Assembly (NCBI GenBank): GCA_951406725.2
Contig: OX597814.1
Span: 114,142,001-114,206,000, forward strand
Direction of reading: 5' to 3'
Source: Octopus vulgaris
Taxonomy: Eukaryota
DNA length: 64,000 nt
This document shows, piece by piece, positions 7,825 through 55,500 of this stretch (positions are counted from its first letter, which is position 1; each line of letters begins with the position of its first letter). A program made the position numbers and the translations under genes. Under the pieces are notes generated by a model, which saw nothing but the letters and a program-made list of their open reading frames with translations, was not told the DNA's origin and ran no database searches.

Positions 7825-9529
7825 ATATGTCTGTTTGTCTGTATTTCTCCCCGCAACATTGCTTGACAACCGATGCTGGTGTGTTTAGGTCCCCGTAACT
7901 TAGTGGTTCAGCAAGAGAGATTGATAGAATAAGTACTGGGCTTACAAAAAATGAGTCCTGGGGTTGATTTGCTTGATCAACTAAAGGCGGTGCTGCAGCA
8001 TGGCCACGGTCAAATGACAGACAAGTAAAAGATTAAAAGAGAATATGTTACAAGGCATGGCTGTTTGGTAAGAAGCTTGCTTCCCACCCACGTGGTTCTG
8101 GGTTCAGTCCTACTCTGTGGCACCTTGAGCAAGTGTCATCTACTATAGCTTCAGGCCAGCCAAAGCCTTGTGAGTGGATTTGGTAAAGGGAAACTGAAAG
8201 AAGCCTGTTGTGTGTGTTTATATATATACATATATTTTTTTTTTTTGTGTGTCTTTGTGTCCATGTTTGTCCCCCGTCACACTTGACACACCAATTGATG
8301 TTGGTGTGTTTACGTCCCCATAACTTAGCGGTTCAGCAAAAGCAACCAATAGAGTAAGTTCTAGGATTTAAAAAAATAAGTCCTGGAGCAAATTTATTTA
8401 ACTAAACCCTTCAAGGTGCTGCCACAGCATGGTCGTAGTCAAATGACTTAAATATGTATAAGAATAAAAGCTATTTCATCATCATCATCATTATTTGTCT
8501 GTCCTTGTTTGTCTTCTCTGTGTTTAGCCCCTTGTGGGTAGTAAAGAAATAGGTATTTTGTCTGCTGCTATGTTCTGAGTTCAAATTTCACTGAGGTCGA
8601 CTTTGCCTTTCATTCTTTTGGGGTTGATTAAATAAGTACCAGTTACACACTGGGGTCGATGTAATCGACTTAATCCGTTTGTCTGTCCTTGTTTGTCCTC
8701 TCTGTGTTTAGCCCCTTGTGGGTTGTAAAGAAATAGGTATTTTGTCTGCTGCTATGTTCTGAGTTCAAATTCTGCCAAGGTTGACTTTGCCTTTCAGGGT
8801 CCATAAAATAAGTACCAGCTGAACACTGGGGTCGATGTAATCGACTCATCTCCTCCCCCAAAATTGCTGCCCTTATGGCAAAATTTGAAACCATCATCAT
8901 TCTTATTATGATTTATTATTATTATTATCATTCTCCAAGAAGTATCCATTTTCCTATATTCTTCCCTCTGCTAGTATCTGCTTTATCTACACTTCCTCCT
9001 CAAAAAGACTAGCTGATCATATGGACCTGTGTAGCTTGTAATTTAAAGTAAAGAGGACATTGAAAGAATCATTACAGTTCCCTCAAACGTTACAAAAACC
9101 AAAGCGAAATGACCTTAGCAACTCTGAGAAAGTTATCATTAACGTTTGGCTTGTTATTTCTATGGTTCCATTATTTTACAGAAGACAGCTCTTCATGTTA
9201 CTTCGTGTCTGACAGGTCTAGCATTCACTGACGTTGTCACGATAAACAAAAGCCATTAACTCAACAGCGACGGAACACAGAAAGGGAGGTTTGTTAATAA
9301 TAATATAGGTGAGTGATAACAAGAATACGACAAGTGTGTATTAGCTAAAACATACAGGATCTGCAGCGGGGGAAATTCGTGTGTGCTTTTCTGTCAGCAT
9401 TATAGTTGAATAGTGTCCAAAAAGAATATGTTATAATCACTGAGATAACCATGTTTTATAGACTAGAAAGGAATCTACAACGTACGTATATTCTGAGAAA
9501 AAATTCATTTCAGACAGTAGCAAAAACCA

Positions 9530-9564
<35 letters not shown>

Positions 9565-12500
9565 AATAATAAACATATATCTATACTGCACCTTTCTAAT
9601 TTCTTCATTTTTAATCAATGTCCTCAACGCAACCAATGCACAAAGTTGAACAGAAAAATGAGTATCTTGACAGGCCAGATCCAAGAGACTGGAAATAAAT
9701 AAAACAACAGTGGTAGATATTACAGTTCTATATTGAAGAGATGAGGAATTATTTACATTTGATGCATATTTGTCCTCATCTTGTTTGTTGCTAATATAAT
9801 GTTTCGGCTGATAAACCATCCAGCCTTCATCTCAACCACATGGACCCATTTGATTCCCACTTTACTCAGATGGACCCTCATTGCCATTCGATGTTTCAAA
9901 GAAACCTTATTGTATACTTATTAAAAATAATTAGGGGTAAAGGTAAAGAGCCCCTTCAGTCATGAATGACCATGGGATTGCACCTAGAAAGTTCCCCTCT
10001 GAGTCACAAATCCAGGCAAAGTTATTTATACAGTTCTATATTTAAGAGATGAAGAATTATGTACATTATTTACATTTGATGGATATTTGTCCTCATCTTG
10101 TTTTGGCTGATATACCCTCCAGCCTTCATCAGGTGTCTTAAGGAGATTTCAAACCTGGGTTCTCATTCCTAAGGTATTTTTCGATGTTATTATTATTGGT
10201 GTAGTGGTTAAGAGCGCGGGCTACTAACCCCAAGATTCCAACTTTAATTCCAGACAGTGACCTGAATAATAATGATAATAATAATAATCATCATCATCAT
10301 TGTTTAACGTCTGCTTTCCATGCTAGCAGCATGGGTTGGATGATTTGACTGAGGACTGGTGAACCAGATGGCTGCACCAGGCTCCAATCTAATAATAATA
10401 ATAGTAACATCAAAAAATACCTTAGGAATGAGAACCCAGGTTCGAAATTTTCCCAAGACACCCGATGAAAGCTGGAGTGTACATCAGCTGAAAAGTTGTG
10501 TTAACAACAAACAAGATGAGGACAAATATCCGTCAAATGTAAATAATGTAAATGGTAGATATATTGAATGCAGAAATATAAGGAATTGCTATTAAATTCA
10601 ATGCTATTTTCCTTTACCTTTTACTTGTGTTCAATCATTAGACTGCGGCCATGTTGGGTCACTGATTTGAAGATTTTTTTAGTTGAATGGATAGACCCCC
10701 AATACTTATTTTTTTAAAGCTTGGCACTTATTCTATCGGTCTCTTTTGCCAAACTGCTAAATTACAGGGACGTAAACACACCAGCACCAGTTGTCAAGCA
10801 GTGGTTAAGGATAAACACAGACATGAAGATCAAGCACATATAAGATCTGATCAAGAAGTATCAGGACTGTTGCCATAGTGATGAAGCTGGTTGTCATGTG
10901 GTGGGATGATATACACAAAGACACACACACACACTGCTGTGTTGGTTCCACACATAAAGCACTGGTGCTGATGCCACGTAAAAAGCACCCACTACACTTT
11001 GTAAAGTGGTTGGCATTAGGAAGGGCATCCAGTCATAGAAACCATTCCACAACAGACAATCTGGAGCCTGGAGCACCACTCCAGCCTTGCCAGCTCCTGC
11101 CAAACCATCCAGTCTATGCCAGCATGGAAGATGGACATTAAACATACATTACAGGATTCCACACAGTTTCTGTCTACCAAATTCACTCACCAGGTATTGT
11201 TTGGCCCAGGGTAAAAGTAGGAAACTCTGCCATCCAGTGAGACTGAACTTGAAACCACATGAGCTTCTTTATTTCATTACATTTGCCATAAAGGCAGTAT
11301 TTCTGTCGGAGCCGCGTGGAGCTTAGGTGTTTCGCTCATAAACACACACATTGCCCGGTCTGAGATTCGAACCCGCGATCCCTTGACCGCGAGTCTGCTG
11401 TTTTAACAACTAGGCCATGTGCCTCCACATGAGCTTCTTAATTACAAAGCATGCCTGTGCCTATCATGTTTCTTTTACGTACAACAAAATGGCAAACAAT
11501 TTCTAAATTATGTTTAAAAATTCTACTTACTTGAGTATTGCTTTCTGCTGAATCAATTCTGCACACAATAAATTTGAATGGATGCCTAAATTACCACAGA
11601 CACCTATATTAGAAGTGGAGAAATAAAAAGCAAACAAGAATAAGCTACAGTTTAAAGAACGTTCATATTTAAAGAAACAAGCTTAGAATTGTAATTCCAA
11701 CAAAGGTCAGAGAGAATGGATGAAGATAAGTAATATATCAATGAGGAGGGGAAATAAATTGACATAACGATCCACGGATATGGAATTAAAGTATATCTTA
11801 GCTGAGTTTTTAGTATTAATTTTAAAAATTATATTGACATGCAGAGATGATGTTTGCAAAAATTGTAGACACTTTCAACCCTGTCACATCTTTAACCATT
11901 CATTATATTAAACGTGGATGAATAAGGCGGTGAGCTGGTAGAAACGATAGCATGCCGGGCGAAATACTTAACAGTATTTAGTCTGTTATGTTCTGAGTTC
12001 AAATTCTGCCGAGGTCAACTTTGCATTTCATCCTTTCAGGGTTGATAAATAAAGTACCAGTTTCGCACTGGGGTTGATGTAATCGACTTAATCCCTTTGT
12101 CTGTCCTTGTTTGTCCCTTCTATGTTTAGCCCCTTGTAGGTAATAAAGAAAAATATACTAAGTATAGGGCGGTGAACTGGCAGAAATGTTAGAATGCCGG
12201 GTGAAATGCTTAGCAGTATTTGTCTGTCATTATGTTCTGAGTTTAAATTCCACCAAGGTCAACTTTGCCTTTCATCCTTTCGGGGTTGATAAATTAAGTA
12301 CCAGTTTCATACTGGGGATCGATCTAATAGAATGGCCCCCTCCCCAAAAATTTTGGGCCTTGTGCCTAAAGTAGAAAAGATTATATTATACTAAGTCTTA
12401 TTTGTTTCAGTCATTAGATTGGTCATACTGTAGCACCACCAACTAGCATGGGTTGGACAGATCATCAGAGTTCCTGCCTTCCTTGACAAGTTAGAGAACC

Positions 12501-15500
12501 TTGCTCTGTTATGTGTTCCAATTTTTAATGATTTTTATACCCAGATGCCCTTCCAATCACAGACCTCTTCACAAAGTACACAAGGTGTATTTCATGATAG
12601 TAACATCCCTGTCCTTGACAAGTCTGAAGGGATGCTCTTGACTGTGCATTTTTCTGAAAATACACCATCCACTTTACAGAATGTCCTGGATTCTTTCCCT
12701 CATGGCACCAGCACTAGTGATGTAGCCATTTATTCAACCAAAACTAAAGATTACTCACTCCACATTGTATCTATTCTTTCAAGACAGTTTCATCATCATC
12801 GTTTAATGTCCGCTTTCCATGCTGGCATGGGTTGGACAGTTTGACTGAGGGCCGGCAAGCCAGGAAGCTGCACCAGGCTCCAATCTGATCTGGCACGGTT
12901 TCTACAGCTGGATGCCCATCCTAACACCAACCACTCTGAGAGTGTAGTGCATGCTTTTTACGTGCCACAAGCATGGGAGCCAGTCAGGTAGAATTGGCAT
13001 CGACCACGTTTGGATGGTGCTTTTTACGTGTCACTGACATAGTAGCCACTTAGGTGGAACTGGCATTGACCACATTTGGATGGTGCTTTTTACATGCCAC
13101 TGGCACAGGAACCAGTCGGTGGGGGGGTGCACTAGCTTTGACCACATTTGGAAGGTGCTTTTTATGTTCCACTGGCACAGGAGCCGGACATGCAGCACTA
13201 GCATTGACCCATGCTTGAATGGTGCTTATTACATGCCACCAGCACGAGTGCCACTCAAGCAGCACTGGCATCGGCCATGACTACGATTTCACTTGACACA
13301 ACAGGTCTTCTCAAGCACAACGTGTCACCCAGTGATTCAAGGATACTTTTAAATGCACTGGTTATTCGACACTGGAATTGGCCACTGCTGCCATCTCACT
13401 TTACTTGCCTGGTCTTCTCAAGCACAGCATATCTCCAAAGGTCTCCGGCTCGTCATTGTCTCTGTGAGGCCCAACATTCAAAGGTCATGCTTCACCAGTG
13501 TATTTATATTTAATTCTTTATTGCTCACAAGGAGCTAAACATAGAGGGGACAAACAATGACAGACAAAGGGACTAAGTCAATTACATTGACCCCGACCCC
13601 AGTGCATAACTGGTACTTATTTAATCGACCCCAAAAGGATGAAAGGCAAAGTCAACCGTGGCAGAATTTGAACTCAGAACGTAGCGGGAGATGAAATACT
13701 GTTAAGCATTTTGCTTGGCGTGCTAATGATTAAAACCCTCACCTCTTGGATACATAAACATGTATGAGCCAATGAGGGGGCTTTGATGTAATTGCTCAAC
13801 CAGTTAGAAATAGCAACTAAATCACGCTCGAATTACTACTATGTGGTAAGGAGTTTGCTTCCGAATTACATGACTGTGTGCTGAGCCCCATTGGATGGTA
13901 CCTTGAGAAAGTGTCTTCTATTATAGCCCTGGGTCAACCTTGTGAGTGGAATTGGTAGACAGTAACTGAAAGAAGTGTGTGTGTGTGTGTGTGTGTGTGT
14001 TTATGTAACCTTGAAATTTTAATGATGTCATTGTTTATATTTAGAATGACGTTGTTGAGGTGTGAGAGGCAGAGATGGCCAGTTTGAACATAAAACAGGT
14101 CAGCTATTTTGGCCAAATATGGCTGCAAGTATATCATTTTTCGGATATTTACCTTTTGACCGACAGATTTAAAAAATAATTTTTTGTAACCAAACACTTT
14201 CAAACTTCGGACATTGGTAGAATGTGTCATATAAAACGTCTTTTACTCTTAGCATTTTTGAGAAAAACTTATATTTACGAAGTAATTTCATGTTAAAGTA
14301 GTCCCATTTTGGTAATTTCAACCAATCAATGACAAAAGAAAACTACATCAGAAGTTCTTGTTGACAAACAATGGCAGTAATTTTATTCAGCGGAATACAC
14401 ATCATTGATTGGTTGAAATTACCGAAATACTACAACTATAACGTGAAATTACTTCGTAAATATAAATTTTTCTCCAAAATGCTGAGAGCAAAAGATGTTT
14501 TATATGACACATTCCACCAGTGTCCAAAGTTTGAAAGTGTTTTGTTACAAAAAATTATTTTTTAAATCTGTCAGTCAAAAGGTAATGATCCCATTTTCTT
14601 TCTTTATCCCTTTGAATGATTCCAGTGAATCCTCTTAACAATTTTATTCTCATAAGTTAGCTACATATTTGGATCATTATACTAGTAATAAAAGTATGCA
14701 CTGATTCTATTTCAATTCTTTATTTTTTGTCAATTGGTAAATTTTTTAACCAGTTCACTAATTGATTGACTGATTAAGTGTTTGTTCAATCAATCATTTA
14801 CATTTTGTGAAAGTCCTTTTGTCACCATTTGCAACCTCATCAATGATAAGCCGTCTGTATTCCAGGCCTGCTTCAGGTTTAGACTTGAAGTAGAGGTGTG
14901 TCATTGATGAGATTGTGAATGGTGACAAAAAAAGACTTTGATTAATTGTTTGATCAGTCAATCGGCTTGGTTTTGTCAAAGAATTGATTAGTTAATTAGT
15001 TATGTATTTTTTTTTACAAGAAATTCCATTGAAGCTTTTATTCATAAGCCATAAGCGTCGTAAGTGTAAAATGAAATGTTTATTCTGACAAATACTTACT
15101 GGCAGCATGTGATCTTGTTTTATGAATGGGATCTTTCAGTAATTGAGTAATTACTGGAATATATGGTAAAAGAGCTTCATATAGGATATCATTATGGAAA
15201 ACTGCATTGCCAACTGCATAAGAAGCACTCTGCAATATATGTAAATTAGAAAAGTGTGAAAAAAATGGTACAGAGAGTATAAATCGATAATGAATAAAGA
15301 GGAAAATAAAGAAAAACTTCCTGGAAATATTAAAAGAGGTAATTCTATGTTCTATTTTTTAAACTTTGAATGTTGTGAAACCATTATTCCACTCATTTCA
15401 GAATGAAACTAATTTCTTAATTGTTTATTTATGTTGATTATGTAACAAATATATGACATATGTTGGCATCTCTTACTGATACACTAAACAACTTGTGTCT

Positions 15501-18322: not shown

Positions 18323-19366
18323 ACTTCTTTCACTTATGAAATACACTCACAAAGCTTTGGTCAGCCCAAGGCTATAGTAGAAGACACTTACCAAAGGTGC
18401 CATGCAGTTGGACAACCTGGAACCATGTGGTTTGTAAGCAAGCTACTTACCACACAGTCACTCCTGTGGAACACTGGGCCTCACCGAGGCAATGACAAGT
18501 GACGGAGACCTTTGGAGATATGCTGTGCTTGAGAAGACCCAGCAAGCCAAATGAGACCATAACCATGGCCTATGCCAGTGAAGCTTAACCAGCCCATTTA
18601 AGAGTACCCTTCAATCGATGGGCAATAAACTGCACTTGTGAAGACCTGCTGAGGCAAGTGAAATTGTTGCCATGGTCGATAGCATGTAAAAAGCATGTAA
18701 AAAGCACCTTTCAAGCGTGATCGCTGCCAGTGTTGCCTGGCACATAATGTGTTGGTGGCACATAAAAAACATCATTCGAGGTGGTCATTGCCAGTGCCAC
18801 TCAACTGGCCCTCGTGCCAGTGGCACGTAAAAAGCATCCATTACATTTTCGCAGTGGTTGGCGTTAGGAAGAGCATCCAGCTGTAGAAACTTCGCCAGAT
18901 CAGATTGGAGCCTGGTGCTGCTTTCTGGCTTGCCAGCCCTCAGTCAAACCATCTAACTCATGCCAGCATGGAAAGCGGACGTTAAACAACAATGACGACG
19001 ATGATGATGATGATATAAAAACTTTGAGTGCATATTTATATTTGTATGTGTTCTCCCCCCCCCCCAAATAATGACAAATTACAATTTTAGTACAATACTC
19101 ACTTTTCTCACATTTGCATCTTTATCCTTTAAGCAATTTAAAAATGTCTTGAACAGTGCATCTCTGAAAGTATAAATATCTAATAATGAGAATTCCAGTT
19201 AAGTGGTGATTAGAATTTTAACCCATAGGAAATAGACTACAGCTGGCTATCAAATTATATTGAATTAAGCACATACTTAATATACATTTTTCTAATTGAA
19301 ATTAAATGAAAAAGGGTATTTTCAATCATAAATTTAGTTAGATATTTTGTAAAATTTTCTTTACAA

Positions 19367-22400: not shown

Positions 22401-25400
22401 GGTTGTCCAAAAGCATTGTGAGCAGATTTGGTAGATAGAAACTGAAATAAGACCATCATGTGTGTGTGTGTGTGTCTCCTTGATTTCATGTGGTAGCAGT
22501 GTCTTTCATTTTGAATATTCTGCTGGAAACCTATCTAGCCATAGGGAAGTATTACCTTCCTAGGAAACAGGTGATGGTTGGTGACAAGAAAGGCATCCGT
22601 CTGTACAAAATCTGCTTTGTATTCTATCTGACCCATGCAAACATGGAAAAGTAAAGGTAAATGGGTGGGAAATCATTAAGTCATTATCATTAAACTAGTG
22701 TTAGGAACATAAATTGGACTGTTTGGTGGAAGATTTTAATTCAAAACTTATGGAAGCAAGACATTTGTACTCAGAGCCAGGGCCAGTTTCAGCCAGGTTG
22801 GTAACGAAAGGGTTAAGAAATTTCTCTATTGTATATTTTAATCATTTTGTTATCATATTTCTATTCAGATGCTCTGTGTTTCTTTCAATTAATTTTAAAT
22901 ATAACAAAGAATTTAGTAAAAAAGTTTAGTTATCATTCACCTAGTGTTAGGAATATAAACTGTGACTAAGATTTGGTGGAAGATTTTAATTCAAAACTTA
23001 TGAAAACAAGACATTTGTACTATAGAGCCAGAGCTGGTTTCAGCTGGGTTGGTATCAAAAGGGTTAAGGAATGATGGAAGAAGTTGGAGTAGAGCAGGTT
23101 CTTGTTGTAGAGGAAGAGCTACGTGGCTGCCCATATTTAGGAAAGAGAGGAAGTGAGAATGAATTAGAGGTATCTCAAAGGAGATAGACAGTGGTGATGA
23201 GGTGTCCAGGTGACACCACAAGTAGCAGGTGTAGCAGTGAGAGGAGTGAGAGTTTGCAAAGGTGTGTGGGGGAAGAGATGCGGGAAGTTGGAGAGGGAGG
23301 TAGGCATCAGCTGTAAGGATTGGGGTAGGGGTGCATAAGTTGGGGAGGCTTCAGGAATACTAGCAGCGTGGGAGTAATGATACAGTTGATGAAGGAGGAG
23401 AGAGAGAGAGAGATGATGTGTTTGGGTTAGCTGCTGGAGCAGAGGAGAGAAATAAAAGAGGTGTAATGCATGAGAAGAGACAATTTGGTGGTTCTGGGAG
23501 GGTAAAGCCTGCTGTAACATGTGGGTGTGGAGAGCAATCTTAATGGGTAAAGAATGGCTAACAAGTGAAATGGTTCAGGGCAGCAAGAGGGAATAGAAGC
23601 ATAGGGATCCATTTGTCCTGTAGCTTTGAGATTTCAAAGATGTGATTGTTTATTTTTAGAATGACATTGAAGGGTAGGTGTGAGAGGCTGGGTCTGGCCA
23701 GTTTGAACATACAACAAATAAAACACTTGGGCCAAATTTGACCAGTTTAGATACAAAAGGGTTAAAGCTATATTTCTACACAGAGACTACTTCACTTCCT
23801 TAAACTAATTTCAACTCTAATTGCTGGTTGCTATGATTAACTTAGAGGACTGAGATAATAATTATTATTATTGTATATAAGTTTTTATTCTCCCCCACCC
23901 CAGCCACCCAACTTCATCACTTAAATAACTTCCCATATACTTATTTTTAGTAGTTTAAGGTATGGAATTAATTTTCCTTTTACTGTTCTCTAAACAATTT
24001 TGAAATTACCACTTGAAAAGAAACTCCATATATTCTCATAAAGCAATGCTTTCACAGCACAACTTAATCACAATCAAATATCAACTACCAAAGATATCAG
24101 TAAAAGAAAGGAAAAAAAAAACACATTTCCTTTCTACTTACAAAAGTAATTTGAAGAGTAATGTATATTAAACAAGAACTCTCAGAAAGCACAAACCTCC
24201 ACCAAGGCAATACCAATGTCCTCTCAATGATTAGCTGGAGATTGTTTTTAAAATGAGAATATCTGAAATAAACTCGACTGCTCTCATAAATGAGAATACT
24301 AAAAATTAACTCTCTCTAAAAAAAAACTGCTCTCAAGAATTAAGTAAAAAAACTAGGAAAAATAATCCAGAATCCTTGTCCGGTACCGGATTGATCCCAA
24401 AATCTAACCAGTTTGTGCCAGTCACAAGGCCAAACATCCATGAATGTTTCACCCGAATCCATCCAGCAGTCCTTGAGATATCTTGTCCACAGACAAACAC
24501 AACTGAAAACAATACCTCCACCTTCGCTAAGGCAGAGGTAATAAATAAATAAAAAAAAAAAAAGGTTCAAAGTAAATTAGGCTTTACTTACCTTTTATGG
24601 AAAATTTCACACAAAAATGATGTATGTTTTAAAATATTGCCAAGTAAACTGCAGACACGAGATTTCAGAACAGAAGGTTCATAGTTCAACAGGGCAGAGA
24701 GCACAGAGTAATCACCTATGTATTGAAGAGAAGGTTGTGTCCATTAAATTTAATAATAAGGGCACAGGTATGAGTATCGCTTGCAAACATGTGGCTTTGG
24801 GTTCAGTCCCACTATGTGGTACCTTGGGCAAGTGTTTTCTACTATAGCTGTAGCCTGGCCAATACTTTGTGAGGTAATTTGATAGGTTGAGACTAAAAGA
24901 AGCTTGTCATATGTACATGTGTGTTTAGATCAGTGGTTCTCAAACTTTTTTTTTTTACCTATGGACCCCTGTGATTGCTATTTTATTCTGGTGGACTCCC
25001 ATAGACATTTGATGTTTAAAAACTTGTTTTCAAGAAACTTCTTTCGGAATACCTAGTGTAGGTTGGACTATATATAACATTAAAGAAACTGAGCTGTTTC
25101 TTGTAATAAATAATCTAAACAAATTTTTTTCATGGACCTTTCAAATAATAATGGGGACCCAATAACTATTTTTCTTGCACAGACACCCAAAATCTTATAT
25201 GAATTCCCAGGGGTTATATGAACACCCAGTTGAGAACCACTGGTTTAAATGAAAAAGCACCATCCGAACGTAGTTGATGACCTGAATAATAACAATAATA
25301 ATAATATCGAAAAATACCTTAGGAATGAGAACCCAGGTTCGAAATTTCCCCAAGATACCTGATGAAGGCTGGAGAATATATCAGCCGAAACGTCGTGTTA

Positions 25401-28400
25401 ACAACAAACAAGATGAGGACAAATATCCGTCAAATGTAAATAATGTGAAGTTATTTATGGAAGACCAGTAGTCACCCACACATACCAGCCTCTCGTGCCA
25501 CTGATGTCATCCAAGGATGAGGCAAAGGCTGATACAGCTTGGCACCAGTGATGTTGCAACTTATTTCTGCAGCTGAGTGAACTAGAGCAATGCGAAATAA
25601 AGTGTCTTGTTCAACAACACAACACACAACCCAGTCCAGGAATCGAACTCACTACTGCATGATTTGTGAGCCTGACATTTTAACCACTGAGCCAAGTGCC
25701 TTCACATTCATTTATTAGGAAATGTACATTATTAGGAACTGCATAAAACAAAATTGTGAAAATATTTAGTGTATTGTAAAAGTATAACAAATTTATTGTG
25801 CATAAATATTAAGGGCAAAATATTTTATGAACCCCAGTTGAGAACCAAGGGGCTAAAGTATGATAAAGGAATAAATGCACGTGTATAAGGGTAGGTGGGA
25901 ATAGCTGGGAAGAAGCTGAGATGGGAGTGCCATTTATTTAGGTTAATCATAAAAAAAAACCCCAAAGAATTTGTCACTCATCATCATCATCATTTAACGT
26001 CTGTTTTCCATGCTAGCATGGGCTGGACGGTTCAACCGGGGTCTGGGAAACCAGAAGGCTGCACCAGGCTGCAGTCTGATCTGGCAGTGTTTCTACAGCT
26101 GGATGCCCTTCCTAATGCCAACCATTCTGAGAGTGTAGTGGGTGCTTTTATGTGCCACTGGCACAGCTGCCAGGGGAGACTGGCAACAGCCATGAACGGT
26201 TGGTGCTTTTTACATACCACCAGTACAGAAGCCAGTCAAGCCAATTACTGAATAATACTTTAAAATACACATAGTTGAGAACCAAAGGCATTTCTACTTA
26301 GACAAGAAACATTTGATCAAACAAAGCAATGGAAGAAGCACTTACCATTCTGTCCCATTAATATTGTATTTAGAATTGGAATGTAATCTGAGGAGGTTCT
26401 TGCTAAATGACAGCATAATGACACAAGGTCACTTAACATGGACTGTGAACTTTTAGGAGATAACAATATTTGTTGTATAAAAGGTACAGCCTGAAAATAA
26501 ACAACAATTATTAATGTATGCTCATAAAAACAGTTTATGAAAGAAATCTCAGTTGTAACCAGTTTCTCAAACAGAGAGGATGTAAGATTTTACAGAGTCT
26601 CTTAAATTTCTCTCTTGTCAACTTTTCCCTGAGGCAGGGCTGTCAGAAATGTTGAATTTTTCACACTTCAAAGTGATTTCACTGTACTCTATTTATTTGA
26701 TATATGTGTGTGTGTGTGTACATTTCTTTTACTTTCCTTTACTTGTTTCAGTCATTTGACTGTGGCCATGCTGGAGCACCACTGTTAGTAGAGAAAATCG
26801 ACCCCAGGACTTATTCTTTGTAAATCTTGTACTTATCCTATCAGCCTCTTTTGCTGATTTGCAAAGTTACAGGGACGTAAACACACTAGCATCAGTTGTC
26901 AAGCGATGTTGTGGGGACAAATGCAGACACACAAACATACACACACACACACACATATATATATATGCATATATACGACAGGCTTCTTTCAGTTTCCGTC
27001 TACCAAATCCACTCACAAGGCTTTGGTTGGCCCAAGGTTATAGTAGAAGACACCTGCCCATGGTGCCACGCAGTGGGACTGAACCTGGAACCATGTCATG
27101 GGTACAAAACGGTGTGATAGATATACAAACCCGCATACATGCATGCAAGACACATATGCCAAACACAGACACACACATAGATACAAACATGCACAGATAT
27201 GGATACATACCACAGAAAGACAAAATGGAATAGAGACAGGACAGAAGAGGTGGGGCATGAGGAATGGAAAATCATTGAACAGGCCACAGAATGTGTGACA
27301 AAAGAACTCTGACAAATAAACTAATAATAATGATAATAAAGCTAAAGTGAAGATCAACTGAACAGTGCATATGATTTGGGTTCAGTCCCACTGTGTGGCA
27401 CCTTGGGCAAATGTCTTCCACTATAACCTTGGGCTGACCAAAGACTTGTGAGTGGATTTGGTAGAAGGAAACTGAAAGAAGCCTGTTGTATATGTGTGTG
27501 TGTGTGTGTGTGTATATAAGCATATGGCTTAGTGATTAGGGCAGTCAGCTCATGATCGTAACGATGTAAGTCCAATTCCCAGTGATGCATTGAGTCCTTG
27601 AGCAAGACACTTTATTTCACGTTTTCCCCAGTCTACTCAGCCAGCAAAAATGAGTTGTACCTGTATTTCGAGGGACCAGCCTTGTCACACTCTGTGTCAC
27701 GCTGAATCTCTCTGCGGACTTTTTTCAGGGTACATGTGTCTGAGAAGTGCTCAGCCACTTGCATGTTAATTTCATGAGCAAACTGTTCCATTGATTGTAT
27801 CAGCTGGAACTCTCTTTGTAACCAACAGAGTGCTCATTTATATATATATATATATATATATAAATAAAACATTCGAGCGAGGTCATTGCCAATGCCGCTG
27901 GACTGACTCCTGTGCAGGTGGCACCCAAAAACACCATTTGAGCGTGGCCATTGGCAGTACCATCTGACTGGCCCTCATGCCGGTAGCACGTAAAAGAACT
28001 TACTACACTCTCGGAGTGGTTGGTGTTAGGAAGGGCATCCAGCTGTAGAAACACTGGAGTCTGGTGCAGCCTTCTGGTTCACTAGTCCTCAGTCAAATTG
28101 TCCAACCCATGCTAGTATGGAAAGCGGATGTTAAAACAATGATGATGATGATAAACAAACAATGTTAACATATACTGAATGTAAAAAACGAATGGGAGAC
28201 AAACAGAAGGTCCATAATTCTTCACCAGTTATTGACCAATTGGTAATATTCAGTTTGGCAGCTTTAACGATAAGACTGAGTGTTTCCCAATTGGTGGTGC
28301 CCGCAAAAAATGTTTTCCTGCGGAGAATTAGGGACAAGAGCAAACAAAACAAAACAAGCAAAATGACACAGAATATGATTTAGAATGGTGGATAAGGACG

Positions 28401-52597: not shown

Positions 52598-55500
52598 GGT
52601 GGCGAGTTGGCAAAATCATTAGCATGCCGGTCGAAATGCTTAGCGGTATTTCATCTGCCGTTATGTTCGGAGTTCAAATTCCACTAAGGTCGACTTTGCC
52701 TTTCATCCTTTCAGGGTCGATAAATTAAGTACTAGTTACGCACTGGGGTCGATGTAATCGACTTAATCTATGTCTGTCCTTGTTTGTCCCCTCTGTCTTT
52801 AGCCCCTTGTGGGTAATAAAGAAATAGGTATTTCGTCTGCCGTTATGTTCGGAGTTCAAATTCCACTAAGGTCGACTTTGCCTTTCATCCTTTCGGGGTC
52901 GATAAATTAAGTACTAGTTACATACTGGGGTCAATATAATCAACTTAATGTCCTTGTTTGTCCCCTCTATGTTTAGCCCCTTGTAGGCAAAGCCCCTGTA
53001 CCTGGCTTTCATTGACATGGACAAAGCCTTCGACAGGGTCTCCCGATCCCTTATCTGGTGGTCAATGAGGAAACTAGGGATAGATGAATGGTAATAAATA
53101 GGTGTGTGAAAAAGTGCCAATCCCTAGCAGTTGAGGGAACCCGTGGAAGAGGTAGACCCAGGAAAACCTGGGACAAGGTGGTGAAGCACGACTTTCGAAC
53201 TTTAGGCCCTACCGAGACAATGACCAGCGACCGAGACCTTTGGAAATATGCTGTGCGTGAGAAGACCAGGCAGGACAAGTGAGTCCAGCCCACTTAAGCA
53301 TGTATTTCCTCCCTTGGACAAACAAAGACCTGTTGAGGCAAGCAAAGTCGAAATTGAACCTCATCCGATGACAGGCACCCATGCCAACCTCACTTTATTA
53401 GACACTAAACTCTGCTTGCGAAGACCTGTTGGGGCAAGTGAAATCGAAATCGGAATCGAAATTGAACCAATCCTATGACTGGCACCCGGCAGTTGCCAGG
53501 GCCGCTGGACTGACTCCTGTGCAGGTGGCAAGTAAAGAAACACCATTTCGACCCTATGCTTGAGGAGATCCATTGAGTCAAGTACACCGAGATCAAAATC
53601 AATGGAAACTGCAGTTGTGATCCCTGAGCCGGTTGCATGTAAAAAGCACCATCTGAACGTGGCCGATGCCAGCGCCGCCTAGACTGGTTTTCGTGCCGGT
53701 GGCATGTAAAAAGAGCTATCCGAATCGTGGCTGATGCCAGCGCTGCCTTGACTTGCTTCCGTGCTGGTGGCACGTAAAAAACATCATCCGAATCGTGGCC
53801 AATTGCCAGTGCCACCTTGACTGGCTTCCGTGCCGGTGGCACGTAAAATGCACCAATCTGATCGTGACTGTTGCCAGCCTCGCCTGGCACCTGTGCAGGT
53901 GTCATGTAAAAAGCACCCACTACACTCACGGAGTGGTTGGCGTTAGGAAGGGCATCCAGCTGTAGAAACACTCCCAGATCAGACCGGAGCCTGGTGCAGC
54001 CTTCTGGCTTCCCAGATCCCCGGTCGAACCATCCAACCCATGCTAGCATGGAGAACGGACGATGATGATGATGATGATGATGATGAATATCAAAAAATAC
54101 CTTAGGAATAAGAACCTAGGTACAAAATTTCCCCAAGAATCTGATGAAAGCTGGAGGATATATCAGCCGAAACGTGTTAACAGCAAACAAGAGGAGGACA
54201 AGTATTCGTCAAATGTAAATAATGACAAAATTATTTTACTACTAAATCCTTCATTATTTCCAAAATCAATTCAAACAAAGGCAGTATGTTTCAGCAGCAA
54301 TATTGGTTTCAAATTTTGGCACAAGGCCAGCAATTTTGGGTGAGGAGGTGAGTCAATTACCTTGACCACAGTACTCAGGTACTCTCTTTAACTCTCTTTT
54401 ACTTGTTTCAGTCATTTGACTGCGGCCATGCTGGAGCACCGCCTTTAGTTGAGCAAATCAACCCCAGGACTTATTCTTTGGAAGCCTAGTACTTATTCTA
54501 TCGGTCACTTAGGCCGAACTGCTAAGTTACAGGGACGTAAACACACTACCATCAGTTGTCAAGCAATGGTGGGGGGGACAAACACAGACACACAAACATA
54601 TACGCATGCATACATACATATATATATACACATATATATATACATATACACATATATACGACAGTTTCCGTCTACAAAATCCACTCACAAGGCTTTGGTT
54701 GACCTGAAGCTATAGTAGAAGACACTTGCCCAAGGTGCCACGGAGTTGGAATGAACCTGGAACCATGTGGTTGGTAAGCAAGCTACTTACCACACAGCCA
54801 CTCCTGTGCCTATAAATGTGTGACACTTACAGCACCTAGGTTTCCCAAGCGGTCACCCATCTAAGTACTAACTAGTCTCGACGTTGCTTAACATCGGTGA
54901 TCGAACGAGAACCAGTGCTTTCAACGTGAGTACATTTTTTTTTTTTATATCAATCTCAAAAAGATGAATGGCAAAGTCTACCTTGGCAGAATTTGAGCTC
55001 TGAAAGTAAAGACTAACAAAATGCTGTTACACGATTCGCCTGGCATGATACTGATTGTGCCAGCTTGCAGTCTTTCAGAAAAAAGTATTAGAAACAAAAT
55101 GGTTAAAGTGTTGTAAATTAAAACCTTTCACCAAATTCTATGTTTTGTTTCAAATGCCAGCATAATAACGGCAAAGTTATTTTCCTAAATTCTTCATTAT
55201 TTTCAGATTTAATTAAAAAGAAAAATAGATAAATTAACAATTTATTTCAACGGAATTCTGGTAATGAACTGATCAAATATTTTGTAATTAGTTAATAAAT
55301 TACATAAAAGATTTAGTTAGAGTCAGGTAATTTTGATTTCACAGAGAGTCAAATACAGTGAATATCAGATATGACATTAGTGAAAGACAGCTAATGACTA
55401 ATCCGTGGCATTATACTAGGTTTTATACATTTCACTTCACTTTCATTGCAGAAAGGCATGAATGTCATGTAATCACTCATCCTTCTCTCATACAAATTAC

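What the first reader, a model, noticed from the sequence alone, without database searches (positions are those of the whole stretch)
9711..10562. Composite hammerhead-element insertion that appears to carry DNA from a site 15 kb away in the same gene
Seen: one 10-bp TSD (TGGTAGATAT) brackets 832 bp made of an element tail(-), the left half of a hAT MITE (9831-9935), the 3' half of a family C SINE (9936-10029), a minus copy and a plus copy. The complementary halves (SINE 5' half, then MITE right half) lie at 25448-25850, directly after another copy of the element. Both SINE breakpoints carry the same 11-mer AAGTTATTTAT (10019-10029 and 25448-25458), whereas the intact SINE at ~1470 reads AGGTTGTTTAT. 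Four collinear STK36 exons lie between the two halves. Inference: an ancestral TSD was split between loci, either by read-through transduction with template jumping and later deletion at the donor, or by ectopic recombination between copies.
Basis: partly seen in the sequence, partly recalled or inferred. Interest (0 to 1): 0.75.

Follow-up and report, generated by a model that had tools for sequence, protein, structure and literature searches.

The report
Penelope insertion holding a neighbour's arm
Two ordinary insertions of the same jumping gene lie 15 kb apart in one host gene, and about 370 bases from the edge of the second now sit inside the first, likely copied in while the first was open and likely deleted later from their old place; it is a rare, readable fossil of how such elements can move host DNA, but it is a single event and long reads have not confirmed it.

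Summary
The 'element' is the terminal repeat (pLTR) of a Penelope-type retrotransposon. Its usual footprint here is TSD, minus arm with tail, plus arm, TSD (48 of 113 other copies). The 10-mer A (9711, 10553) and the 10/11-mer B (10019, 25448) are therefore TSDs of two ordinary insertions, interleaved A..B..A..B around four collinear STK36 exons.

The halves came from one locus. The SINE and MITE halves abut, both carry a double variant seen in 5 of 4,416 intact SINE copies, and each SINE junction is unique in the genome. Target preference is rejected.

The mechanism is not settled: template-switch copy then donor deletion (0.45), one concerted cut-and-paste between synchronous insertions (0.3), unequal crossover plus deletions (0.12), misassembly (0.08). 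The event is rare: 0 of 113 other copies look like it, and no distant TSD partner was found for 13 extended loci or in 8 genome-wide searches. Public contigs touch three junctions but not the diagnostic ones.

The scan had already noted what is probably this repeat family elsewhere in the genome (e1-8669850), but not the split TSD. This is a new variant of known Penelope host-DNA capture.

The parts
9592..9688 (-). STK36 exon just downstream (in transcript sense) of insertion A; its splice acceptor ends 22 nt from TSD A
   Evidence: tblastn of P0001 aa 1221-1255; acceptor read
9711..9720 (+). TSD A, left copy
   Evidence: TSD score 10 against a null of 0.25%
9721..9831 (-). Minus arm of insertion A: pLTR tail plus body, truncated inside the hammerhead core; 2-bp microhomology to the MITE
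9832..9935 (+). Left half of a hAT-like MITE, broken within its left terminal repeat; single-copy in the genome
9936..10018 (-). 3' part of SINE family C
10019..10028 (+). TSD B, left copy (inside the SINE; double variant)
10029..10197 (-). Minus arm of insertion B: full tail plus body, with an 18-bp deletion that removes half of the hammerhead core
10198..10552 (+). Plus arm: tRNA-like head 10198-10268, (AAT)n, nested piece of another SINE 10281-10393, body ending at the short (tail-less) start point
   Evidence: ARAGORN finds no tRNA gene, so tRNA-likeness is by eye
10553..10562 (+). TSD A, right copy
11533..11604 (-). STK36 exon (aa 1199-1222 of P0001)
15101..15238 (-). STK36 exon (aa 1153-1198)
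19103..19186 (-). STK36 exon (aa 1128-1155)
24591..24716 (-). STK36 exon (aa 1094-1135), 562 bp from the donor junction
25252..25279 (+). 28-bp remnant of another SINE family, cut off at the donor junction (2-bp microhomology to the plus arm)
25278..25447 (+). Plus arm of insertion B, 5'-truncated after the head; the only one of the four arms with an intact hammerhead core
25448..25457 (+). TSD B, right copy
   Evidence: TSD score 11
25458..25710 (-). 5' part of SINE family C, continuing exactly from the part at 9936-10028
25711..25850 (+). Right half of the same MITE, with a short local duplication at the SINE boundary

Best explanation
Two head-to-head insertions of a Penelope-type terminal repeat have interleaved target-site duplications, and about 370 bp from the left side of insertion B (MITE half, SINE half, TSD B, minus arm) now sit in the centre of insertion A; this block was likely copied there by a template switch while A's centre was open, and B's original left side was likely deleted afterwards. 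Shown: the anatomy, the normal two-armed footprint of the family, the common origin of the halves and the absence of a second copy. Inferred: the Penelope enzyme nicks both strands and extends both ends on RNA, leaving two free cDNA ends to be joined in the middle. One end then switched template. It either invaded the direct-repeat plus arm of B 15 kb away and copied leftwards, or jumped onto STK36 intron RNA, in which B's minus arm reads in sense followed by its flank. It closed by 2-bp microhomology. The palindrome at B later lost its left arm and flank, sparing the exon 562 bp away. The same copy could also have been made later, at a break in A's palindrome.
For: (1) Footprint: of 113 other tail-bearing copies, 66 are head-to-head pairs and 48 of these have a TSD scoring 8 or more (null 2.25%). 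The window's A-A and B-B pairs score 10 and 11, the crossed pairs 3 and 4. (2) Longer copies carry a reading frame whose relatives have a reverse transcriptase domain. (3) A Poseidon enzyme cleaves and extends both strands and starts at two sites that define the tail (PMC11167929, main text through the start of Methods). (4) Common origin; the moved MITE half is single-copy. (5) Two direct pLTRs around host DNA, plus one inverted pLTR, inside one TSD is the published architecture of Penelope host capture (PMC3846280, passages). (6) Jumps from a pLTR body onto sequence beyond a tail occur in this family with the element's own ORF as spacer (L072). (7) Lone arms are common: 47 of 113 lack a full-ended plus arm within 1.5 kb, and only 4 of these have a TSD. 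(8) The donor junction is not a seamless rejoin, so sequence was lost there.
Against: It needs two events, and the deletion had to remove the whole copied block while sparing B's plus arm. Whether lone arms arise by later deletion or at insertion is undecided (inconclusive). If B was the pre-existing template it should be the older insertion, yet A's arms are the more diverged (16/229 against 11/276, Fisher p = 0.16). The two plus arms share no derived variant, so there is no trace of a conversion tract. 0 of 113 other copies have a host spacer between direct arms. No listed public contig spans the junctions at 9831/9832 or 10197/10198.
Confidence: 0.45

Rival explanations
1. Concerted cut-and-paste: both insertions were in progress together, a third break fell just left of B, and six ends were mis-joined (A minus arm to the block, B minus arm to A plus arm, the remaining end to B plus arm). 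This equals circularising the 15-kb segment through a B-A 'heteroduplication' bridge and reopening it in the same intron.
For: It explains in one event why the block is single-copy and why all three new junctions show 1-2 bp microhomology. The central junction looks like any normal head-to-head centre. Synchronous L1 insertions give bridges flanked by two different TSDs, including by double twin priming (bioRxiv 10.1101/2024.08.27.596794 and PMC11702581, passages). Exon order is preserved, as selection would require.
Against: It needs two germline insertions 15 kb apart at the same moment plus a third break. My test for a loss-free rejoin failed. No second case was found: 0 of 13 extended loci, 0 of 3 and 0 of 5 genome-wide partner searches.
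Confidence: 0.3
2. Unequal crossover between the two direct plus arms (91% identical, 15 kb apart) duplicated the four-exon segment; one deletion then removed the first copy from A's minus arm to the MITE, and another removed B's left side.
For: The plus arms are direct repeats (163 bp, 90.8%). Each step is a standard process (established knowledge), and selection on STK36 would favour loss of duplicated exons (inference).
Against: It needs three events, with two deletion end points near the same MITE. No remnant of duplicated exons appears in the tblastn map.
Confidence: 0.12
3. Assembly error: two canonical insertions exist, and the assembler moved B's left side into A.
For: Inverted Penelope repeats are said to trouble assemblies (PMC8557442, passage). 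The diagnostic junctions are not spanned by any listed contig (32 of 237,704 pieces shown).
Against: The window has no N and lies in a 226-Mb contig. The donor side also lacks sequence and has its own microhomology junction, which a simple misplacement would not make. Contigs of three organism labels match the A-left, B-left and A-right junctions with one difference each, but with only 23-26 letters on the element side, under the tool's 31-letter bar, and these junctions would exist in the unrearranged state too.
Confidence: 0.08
4. Independent insertions at a preferred SINE position, so the two halves are unrelated copies.
For: The element does insert into SINE C elsewhere (L084, at another position).
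Against: Each junction pattern matches once in 2.8 Gb, at this locus, against 4,416 intact SINE copies. The double variant is in 5 of these. Both halves also adjoin complementary halves of one MITE family.
Confidence: 0.02

Closest known systems
Penelope/Poseidon PLE insertions with inverted pLTRs and a 30-40 bp tail (PMC11167929 main text to the start of Methods; PMC8557442 passages)
   Same: Inverted arms, a tail of about 34 bp on one arm only, two fixed start points, TSD outside, minimal hammerhead motif, RT-bearing reading frame in longer copies.
   Different: Here two insertions have interleaved TSDs, and the repeat starts with a tRNA-like head (by eye).
pLTR-mediated capture of host DNA in Adineta vaga (Pen1 spacers, Pen3a NRPS gene; PMC3846280, passages)
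   Same: Two direct pLTRs around host DNA plus one inverted pLTR, all inside one TSD.
   Different: The donor is identifiable 15 kb away through a split TSD, the captured piece includes an arm and TSD of another insertion, and the donor has lost it. The passages I read describe no such case.
L1 'heteroduplication' bridges from synchronous insertions (bioRxiv 10.1101/2024.08.27.596794; PMC11702581; passages)
   Same: A retroelement bridge flanked by two different TSDs whose partners lie elsewhere; twin priming on both ends; templated genomic inserts near the site.
   Different: Those are somatic or experimental L1 events giving translocations and inversions. This is an inherited Penelope event with a local 370-bp shift and unchanged exon order, and synchrony is not shown.
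Minimal type I hammerheads of PLEs (PMC4209133, passages)
   Same: Core, extra base before helix II, G-C closing pair and palindromic helix III in the arm at 25278-25447.
   Different: Three of the four arms have lost the core; cleavage was not tested.

Membership tests
Penelope-like element (EN+ Penelope/Poseidon type) | pLTRs in inverted or tandem arrangement with TSD | tested here: met
   48 of 113 other copies are TSD-flanked head-to-head pairs; partial tandem in L072
Penelope-like element (EN+ Penelope/Poseidon type) | 30-40 bp tail on one end only | tested here: met
   34-bp tail on minus arms; plus arms end about 34 bp earlier
Penelope-like element (EN+ Penelope/Poseidon type) | Linked reading frame with reverse transcriptase | tested here: met
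   A 180-aa frame next to the head in L071 hits 14 proteins at E <= 1e-5, 9 of them with PF00078; not present in the window copies
Penelope-like element (EN+ Penelope/Poseidon type) | C-terminal GIY-YIG endonuclease | tested here: inconclusive
   No Pfam or NCBIfam hit for the fragment; the resemblance is by eye and from recall
Penelope-like element (EN+ Penelope/Poseidon type) | RT phylogeny placing it in the Penelope/Poseidon clade | not tested
   No tree built
PLE minimal hammerhead | Conserved core with helix II and palindromic helix III | tested here: met
   Intact in the arm at 25278-25447 and in 32 of 62 other arms of 110 bp or more; no Rfam hit; monomer fold not significant, z = -1.16
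PLE minimal hammerhead | Self-cleavage | not testable with these tools
   Needs an in vitro assay
pLTR-mediated host DNA capture | Host DNA between direct pLTRs inside one TSD | tested here: met
   9721-10552
pLTR-mediated host DNA capture | Empty site and intact donor seen in an allele or relative | tested here: inconclusive
   One read-laying succeeded; no empty-site joint among the 15 of 528 joints listed
Heteroduplication from synchronous insertions | Bridge flanked by two different TSDs whose partners lie elsewhere | tested here: met
   B-[minus arm, plus arm]-A at 10019-10562, partners at 9711 and 25448
Heteroduplication from synchronous insertions | Direct reciprocal bridge and proof of synchrony | tested here: not met
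   The other two arms join genomic DNA, not each other; a loss-free rejoin was rejected; timing cannot be resolved
hAT-type MITE | Terminal inverted repeats and 8-bp TSD | tested here: met
   Family copies L009 and L016; the TSD of this copy could not be recovered because its left end is lost

The most novel reading that the evidence does not exclude
This is an inherited record of two synchronous, twin-primed Penelope insertions exchanging ends: a Penelope counterpart of L1 heteroduplication, resolved as a circular permutation of a 15-kb, four-exon segment that left the gene intact. It would show that the two arms of a Penelope insertion are free DNA ends in vivo, able to rearrange a genome known for scrambled gene order, and that such events can be found by matching orphan TSDs.
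Probability: 0.3. Interest if true: 0.65.

Novelty: new variant of a known kind. Interest (0 to 1): 0.42.

Why it matters
How Penelope elements capture host DNA and form their inverted structures is still open (PMC8557442, PMC11167929). In the captures I read about, the donor could not be tied to the capture by a split TSD. Here nested old repeats act as a ruler that fixes the donor, the break points and the original order, so orthologous loci can decide between copy-and-loss and concerted end exchange. The limit is that it is one rare event with no visible effect on STK36, and my samples show it is not the usual fate of these insertions.

Tried and rejected
Seamless rejoin: I first thought six bases at 25270-25275 completed the MITE's left terminal repeat, which would have proved loss-free cut-and-paste. 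They belong to another SINE family; rejected.

Target preference: rejected. A second copy of the moved block elsewhere: none (next best hits 79-90%).

Recurrence: 13 non-canonical loci were extended by 10-20 kb and showed no interleaved partner. Three had other explanations (L031 single arm with TSD, L072 partial tandem, L091 nested SINE). Three genome-wide searches for partners of differently flanked pairs gave 0 hits. Five searches for partners of lone arms gave 7 hits against 3 control hits, none credible. The pattern would find 23 of 48 true pairs, so P(0 of 5) = 0.04 if all lone arms had partners.

Long centres of other insertions are mostly the element's own ORF or later SINE insertions; L030 may hold host DNA, source not found. 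Arm relatedness and age did not discriminate the models. Whether target repeats resume after lone arms was inconclusive (8 of 47 informative). No TSD for the split MITE was found.

Led nowhere: a metagenome scan for the STK36 exon (0), one poorly aimed pattern, the Atlas look-up (not available), kinase-motif scanning (the exons here are C-terminal). Read-laying over both loci at once was not possible, so the donor side has no read evidence. Word shares of 0.29-0.75 in 20 runs are inflated by repeats and are not used as evidence.

Literature: 8 searches showed no paper on interleaved Penelope TSDs. The library lacks most subscription journals, and I read no supplements.

Full report
1. Observation. 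The window is G000:C1:114142001-114206000 of a 2.8-Gb genome and has no N. TGGTAGATAT (A) occurs on the + strand at 9711 and 10553 only, 832 bp apart between copies. AAGTTATTTAT (B) occurs at 10019 and 25448 only. Between the A copies lie a minus arm with tail (9721-9831), half a MITE, part of SINE C ending in B, a second minus arm with tail (10029-10197) and a plus arm (10198-10552) that holds a nested piece of another SINE. At 25278-25447 lies a plus arm, followed by B, the rest of SINE C and the other MITE half. Four STK36 exons on the minus strand lie between, in the order of protein P0001 (the exon at 15.1 kb did not appear in the filtered output and was placed).

2. The element. It carries a hammerhead core with the features listed for PLE minimal ribozymes (PMC4209133, passages). 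Rfam has no hit for it, and the monomer does not fold better than shuffles. I examined 113 other copies: all 23 other exact matches of a 51-mer, and 90 of the first 100 listed of 2,442 matches of a 32-mer, all on contig C1. The sample is biased to well-preserved tails. Of these, 66 are head-to-head pairs within 1.5 kb, 48 with a TSD score of 8 or more (null 2.25%) and 18 with none or a weak one; 47 lack a full-ended plus arm. Longer copies continue into a reading frame whose relatives carry a reverse transcriptase domain; Pfam and NCBIfam did not name the fragment. The element is therefore the pLTR of a Penelope-type retrotransposon. The tail on one arm and the shorter end on the other match the two RT start sites and two-strand extension shown in vitro for an Anolis Poseidon element (PMC11167929).

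3. What is unusual. A and B each sit exactly as a normal TSD does, before a tail and after a plus arm. A-A scores 10, B-B 11, and the crossed pairs 3 and 4. The order is A..B..A..B. The left side of insertion B (about 190 bp of flank, B and the minus arm) lies in the centre of insertion A and is absent from its old place.

4. Common origin of the halves. The SINE halves join at B without gap. The MITE halves abut in an alignment with 19 family copies. Both SINE ends carry two substitutions found together in 5 of 4,416 intact copies. Each SINE-element junction pattern matches once in the genome, here. The moved MITE half has no near-identical second copy.

5. Junctions. The arm-to-MITE and remnant-to-plus-arm junctions have 2-bp microhomology; the central junction looks like any head-to-head centre. 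My idea that the donor end and the block's start rejoin without loss failed: the bases belong to a 28-bp remnant of another SINE. An unknown amount, at least the MITE's first bases, was lost.

6. Mechanism. Best (0.45): template-switch copy into the open centre of A, by DNA invasion of B's direct-repeat plus arm or by an RT jump onto STK36 intron RNA, with later deletion at the donor palindrome. It reproduces the published capture architecture (PMC3846280, passages), and lone arms are common. Against it: two events are needed, A's arms are if anything older (p = 0.16), and the plus arms share no derived variant. Close rival (0.3): concerted end exchange between synchronous insertions plus a third break, analogous to L1 heteroduplication (passages). 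Unequal crossover with two deletions (0.12) and misassembly (0.08) remain. The sequence alone cannot separate the first two.

7. How common. 0 of 113 other copies have host DNA between direct arms (upper 95% bound 2.6%). No crossed partner was found in 13 extended loci, in 3 searches for differently flanked pairs or in 5 searches for lone arms (sensitivity 23 of 48). The event is rare, and most lone arms do not have an intact distant partner.

8. Independent data. Contigs of 4 public runs were laid on 9300-11100. X17 has pieces at 9576-9743 and 9984-10051, X16 at 10527-10648 and X2 at 10527-10721, each with one difference. They suggest the A and B junctions are shared by three organism labels, but they extend only 23-26 letters into the element, under the tool's bar, and do not test the rearranged order. 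Only 32 of 237,704 pieces were listed. The donor side has no read evidence.

9. Novelty. The parts are known: Penelope inverted insertions, host capture between pLTRs, and heteroduplication for L1. I found no description of interleaved Penelope TSDs with an identified donor in 8 paper searches or in the scan's notes. I also saw passages of PMC8557442, PMC13282606 and bioRxiv 10.64898/2026.07.22.740005; no supplements were read. Verdict: a real feature, a new variant of a known kind, interest 0.42; 0.65 if concerted exchange (probability 0.3) is shown.

Noticed in passing
113 loci L022-L044, L067-L096, L117-L176: The two arms of one insertion share more derived variants than arms of different insertions (1.32 against 0.59 per pair, 22 pairs, 0 of 5,000 permutations as high), suggesting one template or arm-to-arm conversion.
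   Followed up: partly
47 of the 113 loci: Lone minus arms without a full-ended plus arm within 1.5 kb, only 4 with a TSD; origin unexplained.
   Followed up: partly
window 9689-9721: Insertion A lies 32 nt from an STK36 splice acceptor; the TSD preserves the last 32 intron bases.
   Followed up: no
window 9721-9831, 10029-10197: Both arms that read in sense in the STK36 pre-mRNA lack a complete hammerhead core. About half of other arms lack it too (30 of 62), so this may be chance.
   Followed up: partly
L083 and L085 (G000:C1 about 21.17 and 22.31 Mb): About 1.7 kb of flank plus arm is duplicated in inverted orientation at 95.6% identity; one copy keeps the plus arm and TSD, the other does not.
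   Followed up: no
L030:1681-2160 (as oriented): About 450 bp between the inverted arms, with an internal tandem duplication and a SINE piece, inside a TSD; possibly another capture.
   Followed up: partly
L084: Undisturbed head-to-head insertion splitting a SINE C copy, both halves adjacent; a control for what site B looked like.
   Followed up: yes
window 54086-54235: Lone plus arm of the same repeat, preceded by a SINE in its microsatellite, without a minus arm.
   Followed up: no
window 54824-54935: 5S rRNA-like copy on the minus strand (Rfam, 71.5 bits) inside an STK36 intron.
   Followed up: no
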